Counted from the stretch's first letter, positions 55,747-61,430 are shown. The stretch is 64,000 nt of DNA from Candidatus Saccharimonadota bacterium (GCA_013815775.1 JACDFN010000002.1:192717-256716), one strand, 5' to 3'. Notes: generated by a model not told the origin, from the sequence alone. Program-made: numbers and translations.

Positions 55747-55775
55747 ACTTTATACCCAGGTGGAAAAGCTGTCAA
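55747..55775 (-). promoter_or_regulatory. sigma-70-type promoter (TTGACA-17-TAAAGT) driving the leader and DUF378 gene
   Basis: On the minus strand, TTGACA at 55775-55770, an exact 17-nt spacer, then TAAAGT at 55752-55747. Confidence 0.45.
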
Positions 55776-55792
55776 TGGTTGTTAGTCGAAAT

Positions 55793-55825
55793 TGTGGATA
55801 AAACTGTGTAAAAGGTGGTGGATAA
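55793..55825. promoter_or_regulatory. two DnaA-box-like 9-mers (TGTGGATAA perfect, GGTGGATAA with 1 mismatch)
   Basis: Located at 55793-55801 and 55817-55825, in the same orientation, 18-50 bp upstream of the -35 above. Confidence 0.3.
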
Positions 55826-55847
55826 GTAAAGGTTCAACCCCTAAAAT

Positions 55848-56342
55848 TTAAACTATTTTATTGTCAAATATTTTTCTTAGAACATCTCTTGAATAAGGGT
55901 CTATCATATTAACTGTTAAGGTCCCGTTGTATGTGACCCCAGGCCCCGATTCATCAAATACTAAGTGTTCAAGTTTACTGCTATCTTTTAGACTATGAAC
56001 CAATGTCGGGAAATGAAATTGTTCTCCTAAGTTTGTCAATTGCTGAAATCTGAAGTATTGCTGAGCACCAAACTGAGACTTATTTGCATCTCTAAAGGTT
56101 TTTGCTAAGTCCGTTGCAATCGACAGTGCCTCGTCATGGCTGGTAAAACTTATTATGTCAAAGGAGTTTCGAGCTTTAAAAACTCGGCTATGCTCCATTA
56201 TATTAAGCGCCACAGCACCTAAGTGAACTGCTCGCCAGTATGGATAATCTTCTACAACCTTTTCAGGCACCGGTTTGAGTATCTGTCCTTCAAGCTCTTT
56301 TATGCGCTTAATATACAGTTCGCTGGAAATTTCGTTGTTCAT
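55848..56342 (-). CDS. hypothetical cytosolic protein (164 aa)
   Basis: An ORF with AAGGG 8 nt upstream of the ATG. I recognise no family. Confidence 0.5.
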   Translation of the reverse strand: MNNEISSELYIKRIKELEGQILKPVPEKVVEDYPYWRAVHLGAVALNIMEHSRVFKARNSFDIISFTSHDEALSIATDLAKTFRDANKSQFGAQQYFRFQQLTNLGEQFHFPTLVHSLKDSSKLEHLVFDESGPGVTYNGTLTVNMIDPYSRDVLRKIFDNKIV

Positions 56343-56392
56343 TATTGCCCTTTTATAACTCTAGGTTGTTGGTGAAGAAAAATAAAGTTTAT

Positions 56393-56422
56393 GCTTGGGA
56401 CCGCGCCTGCGCGGTCCCAAGC
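56393..56422. repeat. 13-bp perfect GC-rich inverted repeat (GCTTGGGACCGCG-cctg-CGCGGTCCCAAGC)
   Basis: Read directly from the sequence. It lies in the intergenic region between two minus-strand ORFs, and only a distal U-rich stretch follows on the minus strand. Confidence 0.5.
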
Positions 56423-56552
56423 GGTGTGGGGGCTAAAAAAGTCGAGGGGCCAGAGCCGCAAGGGCTACAACAACCAAGACAAATAATAGCCCAACCGTGA
56501 CATCCTTCCTAGCCCAATTGGGTACTAGAACCTCCTTCACCTTGATCATTAG

Positions 56553-57035
56553 CTACATTGTCGACTCAACGATCTTTCGGTCACCGGCGAAGTGGATGAC
56601 GAATTTAATGCTTGCATCATCTTGGTCCGGTGGTATGGCTCTTACTCGAAGAGTCCAGGTCTTGGACCTGCGCAGAGCATTACTAAGCGTTGGCGCTGTC
56701 CGAGGGTTTACGGAAGACCAGAATTTTTCATCTGCAGCCACGACACCCCTGAAGGTCTCGGTACCTGCAACAACGGTCCATCTCAACCGGTAACCATTAG
56801 TCGCGCTACCGGTGAAAGTGAACCACGATGAGGCAGTAACGCTACAGTCAAGACTGAGGCCTCCATTACTGATTTCCTGGCGCTCGCAAGCCAAAGCAAC
56901 GCTGCTGGGCGAAGCCGCGTTGGCTTCCTGACTAAACGCCAGGTACAGAACAGCTACCCCCAGAACAATTGCTCCGCAAATAAAAACGAAGCGAACGATG
57001 CGAAGAACGTCATAACCACGAACATTGTCAGACAT
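56553..57035 (-). CDS. hypothetical exported or anchored protein (160 aa), visibly GC-richer than its surroundings
   Basis: It has an N-terminal TM (FVFICGAIVLGVAVLYLAF) and a beta-rich ectodomain with 2 Cys. AAGGA lies 8 nt upstream of the ATG. Confidence 0.55.
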   Translation of the reverse strand: MSDNVRGYDVLRIVRFVFICGAIVLGVAVLYLAFSQEANAASPSSVALACERQEISNGGLSLDCSVTASSWFTFTGSATNGYRLRWTVVAGTETFRGVVAADEKFWSSVNPRTAPTLSNALRRSKTWTLRVRAIPPDQDDASIKFVIHFAGDRKIVESTM

Positions 57036-57449
57036 TGCTCTGTCCTTTCGGTCGCAGTATTAAGGTATGTCAAGAATCTCGAGAGTTCACTGAAAATCAG
57101 CGAAACCTTAGGTTAGCTTTTAGACTTACCCTAGTCACTCTCGTGAGTCATATTATAACACTTTAATAAACCATAAGCAATTGGGCTATGCAGATAGGAT
57201 TATGGGTCAGACGAAATTGAATTTTTACTTTAAGTTTGCCAATTTAGATCTCAATTAGATTAGTGGGTATTTTTAAACCGTTTAACTAATTTATATAGCT
57301 GCCAAATTATTATAACTCTACCTAACATATAATCTCCGTTTATTCTTAGCACTATAGAAGCCTAGGAGTCAGATGTATGTGAAATTTTTATTTTAACTCC
57401 CGGTAAGTTCAACCCTTCGCTTTAAGACTTAACTGTATAATACGAAATC

Positions 57450-57782
57450 ATGGAAGCTAACAATATTTTTGAAGCCGGGGAAATTACAGGAGATAACCCC
57501 GGTAATAGCGACCTACTTTTTGGGCCGGCAGGCGAGCATTTCACTAATAGGGCAGAAGCCTTCAAGGCAACCTTGGCGGAAGGCCATGAAGTATCAACTA
57601 TTATTGATGGACGGGCAGTATCAACAGAATTATTAAGCTTGCGTGCTAAGCATGCCTCTAGAACATATACTGCCAGATTTACAGAGGGAATAGGCGAACA
57701 TAAGAGAGAAATAGTAATTGGACTTACCGTTGCCGGAGTTCTATTGGCTGCTAATCAGCTGCGTATTAAAAGAAAAAAGTAA
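57450..57782 (+). CDS. hypothetical tail-anchored protein (110 aa)
   Basis: A soluble acidic N-terminal part with a single C-terminal TM (IVIGLTVAGVLLAANQL) followed by RIKRKK. Confidence 0.45.
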   Translation: MEANNIFEAGEITGDNPGNSDLLFGPAGEHFTNRAEAFKATLAEGHEVSTIIDGRAVSTELLSLRAKHASRTYTARFTEGIGEHKREIVIGLTVAGVLLAANQLRIKRKK

Positions 57783-57785
57783 CTA

Positions 57786-58439
57786 TTAGAGCTGGTTGGC
57801 ATTAGCGGCCATGAAGATTCCGTTGATTTTACTGTCTCCATCAAAGTTAAACGAAACTAGGTAATTGTTGGCGGATTTGCCCACAAAGGCGGTAGCTGGA
57901 AAGTATTGTTTGTAGTCACCGGCACGGTAATCACTCAGGGTTGCCTCGGGAAGAGAGAAGTCCCAAGGGTCAGTGCCTGTGTCGAGATACTTTATGTCCG
58001 TCACTGCCTGCGCTGCGGTACGTTCACCAACCCCCCCGCTAGCAGCAATGATTACATTTACCTTTGTGGCCATATAGCCCTGCAGTGCGGCATAGTTGCC
58101 GGATTTGACAGCCGCCTCAATGTTGTCCAATGTTGCCAAGGCGGGAGCCTTAGGTTCTGCGGCTTCGTCCTGCGCTACTTCGTTTTTTGCGTCTGCAACT
58201 GCTCTACGAAGATCACTTACGCGTTGCTCAAGCGCAGCTATCTCGGATTGCTGGCGCTTAGTAATGGTGTTAGCTTCTTTGTCCCGCCAGTAATATGTTC
58301 CATAGGCCGCCGCCACTATTAATAGTAAAGCCGTTAGTAGCTTCAACATTCTCCTAGGCTTTTTTTTGTTGGGTTCATGCAATTGATGGTTATATGAAAC
58401 CTCCTGTCTTGGTTCGCTGGGGTGTCGTTGATAATCCAT
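57786..58439 (-). CDS. hypothetical bitopic membrane protein with a coiled coil and a ~110-aa ectodomain
   Basis: 217 aa with a basic N-terminus, a TM (LLTALLLIVAAAYGTYYW), the coiled coil QQSEIAALEQRVSDLRRAVADAKNE, and a C-terminal domain. Confidence 0.55.
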   Translation of the reverse strand: MDYQRHPSEPRQEVSYNHQLHEPNKKKPRRMLKLLTALLLIVAAAYGTYYWRDKEANTITKRQQSEIAALEQRVSDLRRAVADAKNEVAQDEAAEPKAPALATLDNIEAAVKSGNYAALQGYMATKVNVIIAASGGVGERTAAQAVTDIKYLDTGTDPWDFSLPEATLSDYRAGDYKQYFPATAFVGKSANNYLVSFNFDGDSKINGIFMAANANQL

Positions 58440-58530
58440 ATTTCCCTCTCTTTACGTTATTTAAATTGTAGACCTGTTCCGGCTAACTTTCAAAAAGATT
58501 TTGAGTTAACTAAACTTCGCACCCGGCGAC

Positions 58531-58989
58531 CTATCCCTCAGGCTGCTGATTTGACTCATCACCACCGAGCAAAGGGGAGAACGCCTTGTCTAAGTCCTCA
58601 ATAATTAAGTCCGGAGCTGCTTTTTCTCTGATTGCTTGTGCTAACTTTAGAGCCTTGCTCCCTAGCGCATAGCGATAGACTATGTCGTTGTTCATAAACG
58701 GAGGGGTTGCACTCTCTTGGGCAATTTCAATTATGGATTCATCTGTGCGTTGATGAAAGTCTTCGAACTTTTCTGCAAAGTCTTCTGCATCAATAATCTT
58801 AGCTGAGCGCTGCTCGCCTTCTTCCCAGCTTGCTAAATAACGATCAAAGCCAGAGATTGATCCAGTATTACCCTTCCTGGCTAATTGAAATATTTCTTCC
58901 TTAAATACCGCCGCTACTACTTCTACCTCGTCTTCATCAAATGTAAGTTTATAGGGGTGGTCGGCGTCTCCAGTTTTCTCAAGATTCAT
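58531..58989 (-). CDS. hypothetical acidic cytosolic protein (152 aa)
   Basis: A D/E-rich ORF with no TM and no family I recognise. Confidence 0.5.
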   Translation of the reverse strand: MNLEKTGDADHPYKLTFDEDEVEVVAAVFKEEIFQLARKGNTGSISGFDRYLASWEEGEQRSAKIIDAEDFAEKFEDFHQRTDESIIEIAQESATPPFMNNDIVYRYALGSKALKLAQAIREKAAPDLIIEDLDKAFSPLLGGDESNQQPEG

Positions 58990-59019
58990 TGCTACTATTT
59001 TTACCCTTACTGCTTGGTT

Positions 59020-59406
59020 TTACAACCCTTGCCCCCACTTTAGTAGAGCTTCATATACATAATCACGCAGGATTCTTTCTGCTTCACTGCGGTTATCTAC
59101 GGGTTCCATATTCAAATGAACAGGACCGTCTCCGAGCTCTTCAATGGCAGGACCGTAAACTTGATAACCGTCCAGGTCGTTGCCTTCTATATATCCTCTT
59201 TGCACGCCAGCTGCGTAAAAATCGACAATCACCCCCGACTCCATATCGCTGGGCCCGTCAAAATTACGCAATATCCAGACCGGTGTGCCACTTTTTACCA
59301 GAGTAATCCTCTCGCTCAAATACTCAGCCCTTAGCTTAGGGCTAGCAATTGCATCTTCCTCAGTAATTTTTAATCCTGACTCACCGCTAGGTAACATCTC
59401 ACTCAT
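59020..59406 (-). CDS. hypothetical acidic cytosolic protein (~128 aa)
   Basis: I took the ATG at 59406 as the start; the ORF track starts at a TTG at 59415. I recognise no family. Confidence 0.5.
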   Translation of the reverse strand: MSEMLPSGESGLKITEEDAIASPKLRAEYLSERITLVKSGTPVWILRNFDGPSDMESGVIVDFYAAGVQRGYIEGNDLDGYQVYGPAIEELGDGPVHLNMEPVDNRSEAERILRDYVYEALLKWGQGL

Positions 59407-59680
59407 ATAACCCAACTTACACGCCGCACCTACTCAAAGCAAGCAAAAGCTTTTACAATAACCTTCACTAAATTTAATGTTGTTAGAAACAAGACAAAAC
59501 CTTGACCCTTTAGTTTAATGCTTTAAAGTAGACGGGTGCCTTAGTGAGAGGCGGTAAGGAGTTAGAATTAGTGAAGCAATTATTAAGTTTGATTAAACGT
59601 GATTATAGGCCCCATAAATTTCTTCGGGAAACCAAACCAAAACCAAAACTCTGGAATGAAATGTTAAAAGAGATTAAAGA

Positions 59681-60040
59681 CTAATAGGGGTTGGGTGCGA
59701 TGCAAGGTTCTTTGACACAGTCGTACTCGTAGCACACTCTTTCGCTATCATATGGCCTCCGTCCACAATTTGGAGGGGGGTCATGCGGATATAGGATGTC
59801 ATCTTCCGTGTTTATTGGTGTAGACGGGGGTGGTTGGGGTGGTGGATTGACTACCGGTTGACGGTTGGGCACGTGAGTACTGCCTGACTTTAAGGTTTGT
59901 TGGAGGACCTGGTTATTTTTAAGCTGACCGGCTGGTTCAGTCTCTGTTCGAACCACTACTATCCAAACGACACTAGCCGCTACTAATACTACTGGGACTA
60001 GCACTCTGGGTAGCAGGAGTATTGTAAGCTTTCGCTTCAT
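59681..60040 (-). CDS. hypothetical secreted Pro-rich protein with a 4-Cys C-terminal module
   Basis: 119 aa with a signal/anchor LTILLLPRVLVPVVLVAASVVWIVVV, the Pro-rich stretch PVVNPPPQPPPSTP, and CGRRPYDSERVCYEYDCVKEPC. Confidence 0.5.
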   Translation of the reverse strand: MKRKLTILLLPRVLVPVVLVAASVVWIVVVRTETEPAGQLKNNQVLQQTLKSGSTHVPNRQPVVNPPPQPPPSTPINTEDDILYPHDPPPNCGRRPYDSERVCYEYDCVKEPCIAPNPY

Positions 60041-60109
60041 AGAAATATTTTATAGTTTTAAGACTAGCAAAGCAAAGACACGGAGGGTGTTAATGATACT
60101 ATATATTTA

Positions 60110-60295
60110 GTGAAATATATTGCCCACGCTGGTGAAGAACATGAAGCCGTTAATGATGGGGCTTCTCATGCTGCTGCCGAAATCGCTAAAAATTCTGACT
60201 CCGGAGTTATTATAATAATAGTTATATTTCTAGTATTGGCTACCGTGGCAACTTTTTACTTCAACCGTTCAGGGCCAACAAACAATGAAAGCTAA
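60110..60295 (+). CDS. doubtful small membrane protein (61 aa)
   Basis: It has a GTG start without an SD and one TM (VIIIIVIFLVLATVATFYF). Confidence 0.3.
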   Translation: MKYIAHAGEEHEAVNDGASHAAAEIAKNSDSGVIIIIVIFLVLATVATFYFNRSGPTNNES

Positions 60296-60312
60296 GCAGG
60301 AAATATAAATCT

Positions 60313-60558
60313 ATGGACAAGCAAGCAAACATTAACCTTAATTACACTGTCCCAGTGGTTACTACTGACGGTAATGTGGTGATAGTTAGTGACCAAGGCG
60401 TTCCAACGGTGCTTTTTTTTCAAGGCCGTAATCAAGAGGGCAACAATCTTCAAGCCGATGTGGTTGCAGCTGTGCGGCTAAACAGCTTGGATGATTTAAA
60501 AAGTCTGCAAAAAGCCATTGGCGACACTGTCAAACAGCACTCTACCCGTGAGCCATAG
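60313..60558 (+). CDS. small protein, possibly DUF3467-like
   Basis: 81 aa. The overall pattern INLNYT...VIVSDQGVPTVLFFQ...VVAAVRLNSLDDLKSLQKAI resembles DUF3467 as I recall it; this is unverified. Confidence 0.4.
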   Translation: MDKQANINLNYTVPVVTTDGNVVIVSDQGVPTVLFFQGRNQEGNNLQADVVAAVRLNSLDDLKSLQKAIGDTVKQHSTREP

Positions 60559-60608
60559 TTATTATATCCCCCTTGTGTAATTTACTAATATGTTGTTATA
60601 TATAACAT

Positions 60609-60950
60609 ATGTTAGCTGCTTTAAAAGATATAAGAGAAACCGTAAGACAAGAGTTAAAAGACAAACAACCAAAAACTTATGAGTCTAAAATTAATGAAGC
60701 CAACTATCGACTACGTTTGGCGCAGACTTTGGGTATCGGTGCTGTATTGGAGCTGGGTTTGGCGACGCACTCTGAAATACAAAACAAACCGGCAGCCTCT
60801 TTACTGGCCTTAGCTATTGGTGGTGTCTGTCTCAGCGGTGCGTCTTATAACGTAGATAAAGCTGGTCTCAACCAAGAGCAGGCCAATCAAATTCAACTGG
60901 TTGCTCAGTTCAATTCCGTTCCAAATGTTGCCCCAAAACTTGGTTCTTGA
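60609..60950 (+). CDS. hypothetical protein with two hydrophobic segments (113 aa)
   Basis: The ORF is preceded by an AT-rich palindrome. The hydrophobic segments are LGIGAVLELGLA and LLALAIGGVCLSGA. Confidence 0.45.
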   Translation: MLAALKDIRETVRQELKDKQPKTYESKINEANYRLRLAQTLGIGAVLELGLATHSEIQNKPAASLLALAIGGVCLSGASYNVDKAGLNQEQANQIQLVAQFNSVPNVAPKLGS

Positions 60951-61021
60951 TATTGCAAATAATTCCCTAATACTAAGTCTATTTGCTTATGTTTTTGATT
61001 TGTTGTAATATAGTATTTTTA

Positions 61022-61051
61022 TTGACTACTGGCCCACGGCAGGACTATCCT
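61022..61051 (+). promoter_or_regulatory. candidate promoter (TTGACT-18-TATCCT) with an A/T-rich upstream element
   Basis: TTGACT at 61022-61027 and TATCCT at 61046-61051. The upstream sequence gtttttgatttgttgtaatatagtattttta is UP-element-like. Confidence 0.4.
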
Positions 61052-61057
61052 ATATTT

Positions 61058-61376
61058 GACACCGGTGAGGTGCCCGGCAAGGGAGAACCGTCATTTCGGA
61101 ACAATCTTGCTGTTTGTACGTTGCAGAAAAGAGGTAATTCCATAAAAGATGCGCACTTCTAGAGTGCAACTCCGCTGTGGGTTACAGATGTCTTCCTGAC
61201 AAGGCAAACTATTTGGGCCGCAAGGCCTAACTAAGCCTCCGCTGAGGAAAAAGGGAGACCGGTTATGCAAGCGTCGGCCTGACGTTAAAACCCGAATGAT
61301 ATCTTACGGAGCATAGTCGAATATGCAATCAGCGCTAAAAGTTCATTGTTTAGGCAACAATGAACTTTTTTGTTTG
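61058..61376 (+). ncRNA. unclassified ~320-nt candidate structured RNA with its own promoter and strong terminator
   Basis: There is no ORF of 60 aa or more on either strand. Multiple local hairpins are present: CCC-GGCAA-GGG, GCACT-tctag-AGTGC, uuGGGCC-GCAA-GGCCuaa, CCTC-cgct-GAGG, CGTC-ggcct-GACG and GCATA-gtcgaa-TATGC. The region ends in a 14-bp stem, AAAAGTTCATTGTT-taggc-AACAATGAACTTTT, followed by TTTGTTT. Confidence 0.4.
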
Positions 61377-61430
61377 CCAGAAAAAATATTTAGGGGCTGT
61401 AAGGCTTTGGCACATTGGTCTGACCATAAC

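What the first reader, a model, noticed from the sequence alone, without database searches (positions are those of the whole stretch)
61022..61376. Unclassified ~320-nt candidate structured RNA with its own promoter and terminator
Seen: a 480-bp gap with no ORF of 60 aa or more on either strand. An A/T-rich UP-like tract precedes TTGACT-18-TATCCT. Downstream lie at least six local hairpins, including uuGGGCC-GCAA-GGCCuaa (a GNRA loop). A possible long-range pairing links TCATTTCGG (61091-61099) with CCGAATGA (61291-61298). The region closes with a 14-bp stem terminator and a U-tract (61337-61376). No downstream plus-strand gene exists, since the next gene is convergent, so this is not a 5' leader. 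I compared it by eye with conserved blocks of RNase P RNA (GAGGAAAGUCC / ACAGAACCCGGCUUA), tmRNA (GGGG...UUCGA...CCACCA, Ala-resume tag), SRP RNA (GGAAGCAGC helix 8) and 5S, and found no convincing match.
Basis: seen in the sequence. Interest (0 to 1): 0.55.

Follow-up and report, generated by a model that had tools for sequence, protein, structure and literature searches.

The report
Conserved orphan RNA gene in Saccharibacteria
The 480-base gap in this Saccharibacteria genome is a conserved, non-protein-coding unit with its own promoter and terminator, most likely a new ~320-base RNA gene that travels with one small orphan membrane-protein gene, but it is seen in only two or three genomes and its function is unknown.

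Summary
The window is a Candidatus Saccharibacteria contig. The gap 60951-61430 lies between a 113-aa orphan gene (p113) and a convergent RND efflux gene. Rfam 15 and ARAGORN find nothing, and no frame shows coding signal.

Most close relatives have the upstream gene p81 directly next to the RND gene, so p113 plus the gap form an accessory cassette of about 870 bp. One Logan contig (L089) carries the same cassette:
- p113 is 34% identical in protein and 48% in DNA.
- The non-coding body 61058-61263 is 80% identical, more than the conserved p81 gene (74%).
- The -35 (TTGACT) and -10 (TATCCT/TATTCT) hexamers are kept, while the 17-18-nt spacer has randomised (33%).
- Indels are not in frame, and substitutions show no period of three.

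Evidence for conserved structure is suggestive only. The consensus fold has 47 pairs, none broken, one compensatory. The least conserved segment keeps a strong hairpin in both genomes. An unbiased test is not significant.

RNase P RNA, c-di-GMP-I riboswitch, tmRNA and an antisense antitoxin were tested and rejected. Function is unknown. This is a rare new RNA family of modest interest.

The parts
60609..60950 (+). p113: a 113-aa orphan gene (predicted membrane protein) that is the partner of the RNA in the accessory cassette. It is probably expressed from TGTTGTTATATA (60591-60602), which ends 7 nt before the ATG, so the mRNA would be leaderless.
   Evidence: Dicodon score is positive in frame. 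No Pfam, PHROG, PADLOC or NCBIfam match. Only 3 family members among about 15 billion proteins. The L089 homolog is 34% identical.
60980..61021 (+). Conserved A/T-rich block upstream of the -35, UP-element-like and possibly a regulator site. It contains TGTTGTAATAT, which nearly repeats the 11-mer in front of p113.
   Evidence: 60980-61027 is 84% identical to L089, while 60951-60979 just upstream cannot be aligned (28%). The 11-mer occurs exactly only at 60591 and 61001 in the window.
61022..61051 (+). Sigma-70-type promoter: -35 TTGACT (61022-61027), 18-nt spacer, -10 TATCCT (61046-61051).
   Evidence: Found by the scan. In L089 the -35 is identical, the -10 is TATTCT and the spacer is 17 nt with 33% identity.
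61058..61376 (+). Predicted RNA of about 319 nt. The start is inferred 7 nt after the -10 and the end at the U tract of the terminator.
   Evidence: Inferred from promoter and terminator. The body 61058-61263 is 80% identical to L089. No coding signal. No Rfam family.
61065..61124 (+). Domain 1: a long irregular hairpin. Helices are 61065-61073:61116-61124, 61075-61081:61106-61112 and 61088-61090:61097-61099. It overlaps the 25-nt invariant block CTTGCTGTTTGTACGTTGCAGAAAA (61106-61130).
   Evidence: RNAalifold consensus: all pairs are kept in both sequences, with two one-sided changes. 61058-61130 is 89% identical.
61134..61185 (+). Domain 2: outer helix 61134-61140:61179-61185 and an inner hairpin 61153-61158:61162-61167 with an invariant loop containing the palindrome UCUAGA.
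   Evidence: One compensatory change, 61155:61165 A-U to G-C, and two one-sided changes. Present in the independent MFE folds of both sequences.
61190..61259 (+). Domain 3: an invariant closing helix GUCUUCCU:AGGGAGAC (61190-61197:61252-61259), a hairpin of variable sequence (61210-61233, GGGCC-GCAA-GGCC here) and a hairpin CCUC-CGCU-GAGG (61236-61247).
   Evidence: The variable segment is only 56% identical, yet it forms a strong hairpin in both genomes (z = -3.7 and -3.4; 0.3% of shuffles do as well).
61260..61336 (+). 3' region, not comparable with any homolog. It has two short hairpins (CGUC-GGCCU-GACG and GCAUA-GUCGAA-UAUGC) and a 5-codon ORF, AUG CAA GCG UCG GCC UGA (61266-61283), 7 nt after the GGGAG of the closing helix.
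   Evidence: Sequence and single-sequence fold only. L089 ends at the position equivalent to 61263.
61337..61376 (+). Intrinsic terminator: a 14-bp stem, 5-nt loop, then UUUUUUGUUUG. It is formally bidirectional, but the U tract is better on the + strand. It probably also ends the convergent RND transcript.
   Evidence: It has the longest stem of the 27 terminator-like sites in 44001-64000.

Best explanation
The gap holds a stand-alone gene for a non-coding RNA of about 320 nt on the + strand. A sigma-70-type promoter (TTGACT-18-TATCCT, with a conserved A/T-rich upstream block) starts it near 61058. The strong intrinsic terminator at 61337-61376 ends it.

The RNA folds into three local domains: two with conserved sequence, and one whose closing helix is invariant and which contains a hairpin of variable sequence.

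With the upstream orphan gene p113 it forms an accessory cassette of about 870 bp. The cassette sits between p81 and the RND pump gene in a few Saccharimonadales lineages and is missing from their close relatives. The RNA is the slowly evolving part of the cassette and p113 the fast-evolving part.

Shown: non-coding nature, purifying selection, promoter-like conservation pattern, no match in Rfam 15 or ARAGORN, patchy distribution.

Inferred: transcription, the ends of the RNA, the fold.

Guessed: it acts in trans as a riboregulator or protein-binding RNA functionally tied to p113, not by antisense pairing to p113 mRNA.
For: Context:
- No ORF over 59 aa and no gene called in the gap.
- Dicodon coding score is at or below zero in all six frames, while p81 and p113 score positive.

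Conservation in L089:
- L089 carries p81, a p113 homolog and then 287 nt that are 77% identical to 60980-61261 (E = 2e-54).
- Identity by feature: RNA body 80%, p81 gene 74%, p113 gene 48%.
- Identity by segment: upstream block plus -35 84%, promoter spacer 33%, -10 region 83%, 61058-61130 89%. Neutral sites are therefore saturated and the rest is under selection.

Not coding:
- 1-nt indels, substitution phases 12:12:16, and stops in all frames of L089.

Structure:
- The consensus fold has 47 pairs, none broken: 6 wobble-compatible changes and 1 compensatory change.
- Consensus fold energy is z = -3.2 against column shuffles, with 0 of 300 shuffles as good.
- Both single sequences fold with z of about -2.
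- The least conserved segment keeps a strong hairpin in both genomes.
- Many G-U pairs favour the + strand.
- The terminator is the strongest in 20 kb.
Against: - Only two sequences can be compared, and L089 stops at 61263. The 3' third and the terminator are therefore unverified.
- An unbiased test, using the fold predicted from the window alone and then scoring the L089 changes, is not significant: 14 pairs broken against 15.4 expected, P = 0.34.
- The count of structure pairs cannot tell the structure from its shuffles with n = 2.
- The minus strand folds almost as well (z = -2.9).
- The window sequence without the terminator gives z of about -0.9.
- The promoter alone is a chance-level match.
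- The element is absent at this locus from L084, L087 and L088. L081-L083 and L122 show different sequence at one flank of the site.
- It was not found in 0.89 Mb of Saccharibacteria loci with a covariance model.
- One 18-mer scan of JGI metagenomes found nothing homologous.
- No expression data exist.
Confidence: 0.6

Rival explanations
1. The conserved stretch is the long 3' UTR of p113, possibly processed into a 3'UTR-derived small RNA. Transcription from the p113 promoter would run through to the only terminator, at 61337-61376.
For: No terminator-like hairpin lies between the p113 stop (60950) and 61337. p113 and the element always occur together and on the same strand.
Against: The 29 nt directly after the p113 stop cannot be aligned (28% identity). 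Conservation resumes in a pattern of -35, random spacer and -10, which points to a separate promoter. Read-through and an own promoter do not exclude each other.
Confidence: 0.13
2. It is a cis-regulatory leader (riboswitch-like or leader-peptide attenuator) that has lost its downstream gene, or that controls only the 5-codon ORF at 61266-61283. The invariant helix GUCUUCCU:AGGGAGAC would hide a Shine-Dalgarno-like GGGAG 7 nt before an AUG, and a terminator follows.
For: Both strands of the closing helix are invariant blocks. An SD-like sequence with 7-nt spacing to an AUG is visible in the sequence. There is a weak resemblance to the c-di-GMP-I aptamer (15.5 bits).
Against: No + strand gene follows; the next gene is convergent. 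The ORF has only 5 codons and its conservation cannot be checked. The c-di-GMP-I score is far below the gathering score of 35, and the matched GGCAAAC becomes GACAAAG in L089. No Rfam riboswitch or leader family matches.
Confidence: 0.1
3. The conservation acts at the DNA level: a recombination or attachment site, or protein-binding sites, of a small mobile cassette that targets the p81-RND junction.
For: The cassette is patchy among close relatives, and the same junction holds a different insert in L123.
Against: No integrase, transposase, terminal inverted repeats or target duplications were seen around the cassette. More than 200 nt of continuous conservation with pair-preserving changes, a hairpin kept despite sequence drift, and a promoter-terminator frame fit an RNA better.
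Confidence: 0.07
4. It is a highly diverged RNase P RNA. Some CPR bacteria have RNase P RNAs that fall below Rfam thresholds (PMC8172020).
For: The length is right. By eye there are loose, collinear resemblances to CR-I, L15 and CR-V, and a P4-like long-range helix with a bulged U. Published precedent: 10 of 35 circular CPR genomes needed lowered thresholds.
Against: No RNase P model reaches E <= 10 even when only 296 nt are searched. CR-I GAGGAAAGUCC is absent: the best in-region match has 2 mismatches and is not conserved in L089. The P4-like 5' strand carries an indel and a substitution in L089. An essential RNA would not sit in a cassette that is missing at this locus from the closest relatives and tied to an orphan gene.
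Confidence: 0.02
5. It is a non-functional spacer or decayed gene remnant whose similarity to L089 reflects recent transfer and not selection.
For: Rare and patchy distribution. There is no thermodynamic signal without the terminator.
Against: The adjacent p113 gene (48% nt), the promoter spacer (33%) and the sequence after the p113 stop (28%) have diverged to saturation in the same pair of genomes. The cassette copies are therefore old, and 80-89% identity needs selection.
Confidence: 0.05

Closest known systems
Stand-alone bacterial non-coding RNA genes of unknown function found by comparative genomics of long intergenic regions (for example the Breaker-lab sets, PMC8632094, PMC2864571; large classes such as OLE, GOLLD, HEARO, ROOL, raiA)
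   Same: An unusually long intergenic region in a compact genome. It has its own promoter and intrinsic terminator, multi-domain local hairpins, conserved sequence blocks interrupted by a variable stem, and no coding potential.
   Different: It matches none of those families in Rfam 15. It is known from only 2-3 genomes, so covariation cannot be established. It is tied to one orphan protein gene in a present-or-absent cassette.
Bacterial RNase P RNA, including the diverged CPR forms (PMC8172020)
   Same: Size of about 320 nt, CPR host, and below-threshold behaviour would have precedent. A P4-like long-range helix can be drawn.
   Different: No covariance-model hit at E <= 10. The universal CR-I nucleotides are absent and the resemblances are not conserved in L089. 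The accessory, patchy distribution does not fit an essential gene.
c-di-GMP-I (GEMM-I) riboswitch, RF01051
   Same: The best, though weak, Rfam similarity is at 61193-61263: GGCAAAC ... CGCAA ... GCC and a GNRA hairpin.
   Different: 15.5 bits against a gathering score of 35. Many model pairs are non-canonical. The key motifs are not conserved in L089. No downstream gene exists to regulate.
Type I toxin-antitoxin pairs with a separately encoded antitoxin sRNA (tisB/istR-1, zorO/orzO type)
   Same: A small hydrophobic protein gene sits next to an independently promoted RNA gene. The distribution is patchy and accessory, and the protein evolves fast.
   Different: No complementarity between the RNA and p113 or p115 mRNA beyond shuffled controls in either genome. 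p113 (113 aa) is larger than typical type I toxins, and the RNA is much longer than typical antitoxins.

Membership tests
Rfam 15 families (all 4227) | Covariance-model score at or above the family's gathering score | tested here: not met
   0 matches in the whole window. With E <= 10 on 601 nt and on 296 nt there is only sub-threshold noise, the best being c-di-GMP-I at 15.5 bits against 35. L089 has no match either.
Bacterial RNase P RNA | Universally conserved CR-I (GAGGAAAGUCC) and CR-V nucleotides forming P4 | tested here: not met
   No match with 0-1 mismatch in the window. In-region matches have 2-3 mismatches, within chance (103 found, 143 expected), and are not kept in L089.
Bacterial RNase P RNA | Detectable by RF00010/RF00011, at least at lowered thresholds as for diverged CPR forms | tested here: not met
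   No RNase P model at E <= 10 in a 296-nt search. Scores between the 5 bits used in PMC8172020 and the E <= 10 reporting limit used here could not be inspected.
Bacterial RNase P RNA | Essential, single-copy gene present in all relatives | tested here: inconclusive
   The element is absent from this locus in L084, L087 and L088 and in 80 other Saccharibacteria RND loci. The rest of those genomes could not be searched.
tmRNA / tRNA | tRNA-like domain and tag reading frame recognised by ARAGORN | tested here: not met
   No tRNA or tmRNA in the window.
c-di-GMP-I riboswitch | Aptamer consensus conserved among homologs, and a regulated gene downstream | tested here: not met
   15.5 bits against 35. 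GGCAAAC and the GNRA hairpin differ in L089. The next gene is convergent.
Type I toxin-antitoxin (RNA antitoxin) | Extended complementarity between the antitoxin RNA and the toxin mRNA | tested here: not met
   The best helices are 10-11 nt, no better than shuffled RNA (74% and 39% of shuffles do at least as well) in the window and in L089.
Independent bacterial ncRNA gene (generic kind) | Own promoter | tested here: met
   -35 and -10 are conserved, spacer length is kept (18 and 17 nt) and spacer sequence is randomised. Promoter activity itself was not tested.
Independent bacterial ncRNA gene (generic kind) | Intrinsic terminator at the 3' end | tested here: met
   A 14-bp stem plus U tract, the strongest in 20 kb. 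Its conservation cannot be tested because L089 ends earlier.
Independent bacterial ncRNA gene (generic kind) | Non-coding yet under purifying selection | tested here: met
Independent bacterial ncRNA gene (generic kind) | Conserved secondary structure supported by covariation | tested here: inconclusive
   For: 47 of 47 consensus pairs kept, 1 compensatory change, z = -3.2, and a hairpin kept in the divergent segment. Against: the window-only fold test is not significant and n = 2.
Independent bacterial ncRNA gene (generic kind) | A discrete transcript is made | not testable with these tools
   No expression data are available.

The most novel reading that the evidence does not exclude
The RNA is the conserved core of a previously undescribed RNA-plus-membrane-protein accessory module of CPR bacteria, for example a new RNA-based toxin/immunity, defence or host-interaction system. 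The module would be gained and lost at a hot spot next to an RND pump gene. In another lineage (L123) the same hot spot carries a different cassette with a hammerhead-like ribozyme.
Probability: 0.15. Interest if true: 0.6.

Novelty: new member of a known kind. Interest (0 to 1): 0.38.

Why it matters
Almost nothing is known about regulatory or structural RNAs in Saccharibacteria and other CPR bacteria beyond the housekeeping set. This is a concrete candidate with defined ends and a defined promoter. It evolves more slowly than the conserved protein gene next to it, while its partner gene evolves extremely fast. That combination suggests the RNA is the functional core of an accessory module. 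If more carriers are found, the element could be added to Rfam and tested by RNA-seq. On present evidence it is a rare, lineage-restricted RNA of unknown function, so the payoff is modest.

Tried and rejected
Searches for homologs that found nothing:
1. blastn, nhmmer and tblastx of the gap against 85 Saccharibacteria RND loci.
3. Second metagenome scan, with the invariant 18-mer: 32 hits, about what a rough estimate of chance gives. None extends beyond 27 nt. L096 and L109 share 27 nt next to an unrelated terminator and were judged coincidence.
4. Two viral-contig scans with conserved blocks: only chance hits.
5. Distant blastn against phages and plasmids, and tblastn of p113 against both: nothing.
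6. Covariance model R1 over 0.89 Mb of held loci: only the two training sequences.

Other tests:
7. Pfam on the four longest ORFs in the gap: nothing.
8. RNase P hypothesis, raised from my own by-eye resemblances and from PMC8172020: rejected.
9. Antisense antitoxin or target pairing with p113 mRNA or the RND 3' end: chance level. A duplexfold screen against translation start regions of window genes gave unrealistic long-loop duplexes and was dropped.
10. CsrB-like GGA sponge: by eye in alignment A1, only one of the GGA/SD-like motifs is conserved in L089.
11. Upstream block as a regulon motif: no other copies in the window beyond chance.

Dead ends:
12. Two look-ups of p113 by exact sequence returned nothing.
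14. Two Python runs timed out (the second with partial output).

Full report
**What the window is.** The convergent gene at 61431-63944 is an AcrB/RND efflux permease (Pfam ACR_tran, E = 1.9e-80). Its relatives are almost all Candidatus Saccharibacteria / Saccharimonadales MAGs. The identical protein is annotated in NCBI as from a Candidatus Saccharibacteria bacterium, on a 261-kb contig. The window is therefore part of a small CPR genome, where a 480-bp non-coding gap is unusual.

**Checking the observation.**
- The gap 60951-61430 has no ORF above 59 aa, and gene callers placed no gene there.
- TTGACT-18-TATCCT is at 61022-61051, the GGGCC-GCAA-GGCC hairpin at 61215-61228, and the 14-bp terminator stem plus U tract at 61337-61376. 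All are as described.
- On this sequence alone the case is weak. The promoter match is at chance level (2 found, 2.4 expected).
- Fold energy gives z = -1.9 with the terminator and about -0.9 without it.
- The terminator itself stands out as the longest stem among 27 terminator-like sites in 20 kb.

**Known families.** Rfam 15 gives nothing at gathering score in the whole window. At E <= 10 on the region it gives only noise, the best being c-di-GMP-I at 15.5 bits against a gathering score of 35. ARAGORN finds no tRNA or tmRNA.

**Coding potential.**
- A dicodon log-odds profile trained on the window's long genes is positive for p81 (60313-60558) and p113 (60609-60950). It is at or below zero in all six frames across the gap.
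- The gap ORFs have no Pfam match.

**Synteny.**
- The closest RND relatives (81, 76, 74 and 67% identity; L081-L085) have a convergent gene 0-17 bp after the RND stop, with no gap.
- L084 is collinear with window 53.2-60.5 kb. It has the p81 homolog directly next to the RND gene.
- The same p81-RND adjacency holds in L087 (p81 95% identical) and L088 (85%).
- p113 plus the gap is therefore an insert of about 870 bp relative to these genomes.
- p113 is an orphan. A word-indexed search of 5.8 billion clusters finds only itself. A full HMMER scan of 1.84 billion representatives finds one other cluster (P0195, E = 4.5e-10). That cluster has two members, each on a short Logan contig.

**The homolog.** L089 is a Logan contig of 1715 bp whose p81 is 81% identical.
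- It carries p81, a 115-aa homolog of p113 (34% identity, pairwise E = 5e-19), and then 287 nt that align to window 60980-61261 at 77% (E = 2e-54) before the contig ends.
- Nucleotide identity by feature: p81 gene 74%, p113 gene 48%, promoter region 75%, RNA body 61058-61263 80%.
- Nucleotide identity by segment: just after the p113 stop 28%; 60980-61027 (upstream block plus -35) 84%; promoter spacer 33%; -10 and discriminator 83%; 61058-61130 89%, including a 25-nt invariant block at 61106-61130; 61131-61200 79%; 61201-61240 56%; 61241-61264 83%.
- Unconstrained positions have therefore randomised, and the conserved blocks must be under purifying selection.
- Conserved hexamers at a fixed distance around a randomised spacer are what a functional sigma-70-type promoter looks like.
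- There are 1-nt indels at 61064 and 61091. Substitutions show no period of three (12:12:16). Every frame of L089 has stops. The constraint is therefore not on a protein.

**Structure.**
- RNAalifold on the shared 210 nt gives three domains with 47 pairs. None is broken in either sequence. Six have wobble-compatible one-sided changes and one has a compensatory change (61155:61165, A-U to G-C).
- The consensus energy gives z = -3.2 against conservation-class-preserving column shuffles (0 of 300 as good). The minus strand gives z = -2.9.
- The many G-U pairs, the promoter and the better U tract all point to the + strand.
- Each sequence alone folds with z of about -2.
- The least conserved segment (56%) forms a strong hairpin at the same place in both genomes: 9 bp with a GCAA loop here, 11 bp with a GCCUUA loop in L089. 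The z-scores are -3.7 and -3.4, and 0.3% of shuffles do as well. This is the best single argument for selection on structure.
- Against this, an unbiased test is not significant. Taking the fold of the window sequence alone and scoring the L089 changes gives 14 broken pairs against 15.4 expected, P = 0.34. Ten of the 14 lie in the poorly alignable hairpin.
- With two sequences the pair-count controls carry no power.
Its 5' strand has changed in L089, and the partner cannot be seen.
- I call the structure suggestive, not shown.

**Search for more members.** The following found nothing beyond chance:
- a covariance model over 0.89 Mb of Saccharibacteria loci;
- two metagenome pattern scans;
- two viral scans;
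- phage and plasmid BLAST.

The cassette is also patchy at short distances. L087 (p81 95% to the window) lacks it. L122 (p81 94% to L089) has a different sequence after p81. L123 has a different insert at the same junction.

**Alternatives considered.**
- *RNase P RNA.* This was worth testing because CPR bacteria have forms that escape default thresholds (PMC8172020) and because I saw loose collinear resemblances. No RNase P model reaches E <= 10 on 296 nt. CR-I is absent. The resemblances are not conserved in L089. The accessory distribution does not fit an essential gene.
- *c-di-GMP-I riboswitch.* It fails on score, on conservation and on the lack of a downstream gene.
- *Antisense antitoxin for p113.* Complementarity is at chance level in both genomes.
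- *Leader or mini-ORF.* The invariant helix hides GGGAG 7 nt before a 5-codon ORF. This cannot be excluded, but no gene follows.
- *Long p113 3' UTR.* This remains possible alongside an own promoter.

**Verdict.**
- It is most likely a new, rare, lineage-restricted non-coding RNA gene (predicted 61058-61376, + strand). It forms an accessory two-gene cassette with the fast-evolving orphan p113.
- Transcription, the 3' end and the fold are inferred. Function is unknown.
- My best guess is a trans-acting or protein-binding RNA tied to p113, held with low confidence.

Noticed in passing
L123 1449-1506 (+); Logan SRR6877398 contig, a Saccharimonadales relative: At the same p81-RND junction this relative carries a different insert: a 196-aa orphan ORF (728-1318) followed by a type III hammerhead ribozyme-like sequence. 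The sequence has the full CUGAUGA...GAAA core and scores 34.5 bits on RF00008, E = 1.3e-4, below the gathering score of 48.5. The 196-aa protein has no Pfam, NCBIfam or PADLOC match.
   Followed up: partly
window 53230-61430 compared with L084 5857-8856, L087, L088, L089, L122, L123: The stretch between the ApbE/FMN_bind genes and the RND gene is 7.3 kb here but 3 kb in L084. The extra DNA is small orphan genes without family matches. The p81-RND junction holds nothing, the p113+RNA cassette or another cassette in different close relatives, so it looks like a hot spot for gain and loss.
   Followed up: partly
window 60591-60609 and 61001-61011: TGTTGTTATATA ends 7 nt before the p113 ATG (the same arrangement is seen in L089), which suggests an extended -10 promoter and a leaderless p113 mRNA. 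A near-identical 11-mer (TGTTGTAATAT) sits in the conserved block upstream of the RNA promoter. These are the only two exact matches to TGTTGTWATAT in the window.
   Followed up: partly
window 61266-61283: A 5-codon ORF (AUG CAA GCG UCG GCC UGA) starts 7 nt after the invariant GGGAGAC that pairs with GUCUUCCU. Its conservation cannot be checked because L089 ends at 61263.
   Followed up: no
window 61157-61163: The loop of the domain 2 hairpin contains the palindrome UCUAGA and is invariant, while its stem carries the compensatory change. A self-complementary loop could support kissing-loop dimerisation.
   Followed up: no
L096 879-905 and L109 2398-2424 (JGI metagenome contigs): A 27-nt near-identical copy of the invariant block (CTGTTTGTACGTTGCAGAAAAAGAGG) sits about 80 nt after a gene end and just before a strong terminator in an unrelated contig. 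There is no other similarity and no Rfam match, so it is probably coincidence.
   Followed up: partly
window 55167-55847: This apparent 681-bp gap folds with z = -3.2 on the minus strand, but it is not empty. It holds a small DUF378-type gene conserved in L084 and L088 that falls below the 100-aa ORF cut-off.
   Followed up: partly
window 61431-64000 and beyond: The RND gene runs off the window. The database protein is 946 aa, and its start lies about 270 nt past position 64000. The 837-aa ORF in the mechanical list is truncated at an internal GTG.
   Followed up: yes
source record: The NCBI copy of this contig is JAITZQ011301733.1 in assembly GCA_020064125.1. That contig number is above 1.3 million, so the Saccharibacteria contig sits inside a very large assembly (a metagenome or a host genome with associated bacteria). 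The same proteins also appear in a MAG with locus tags H0X09_.
   Followed up: no
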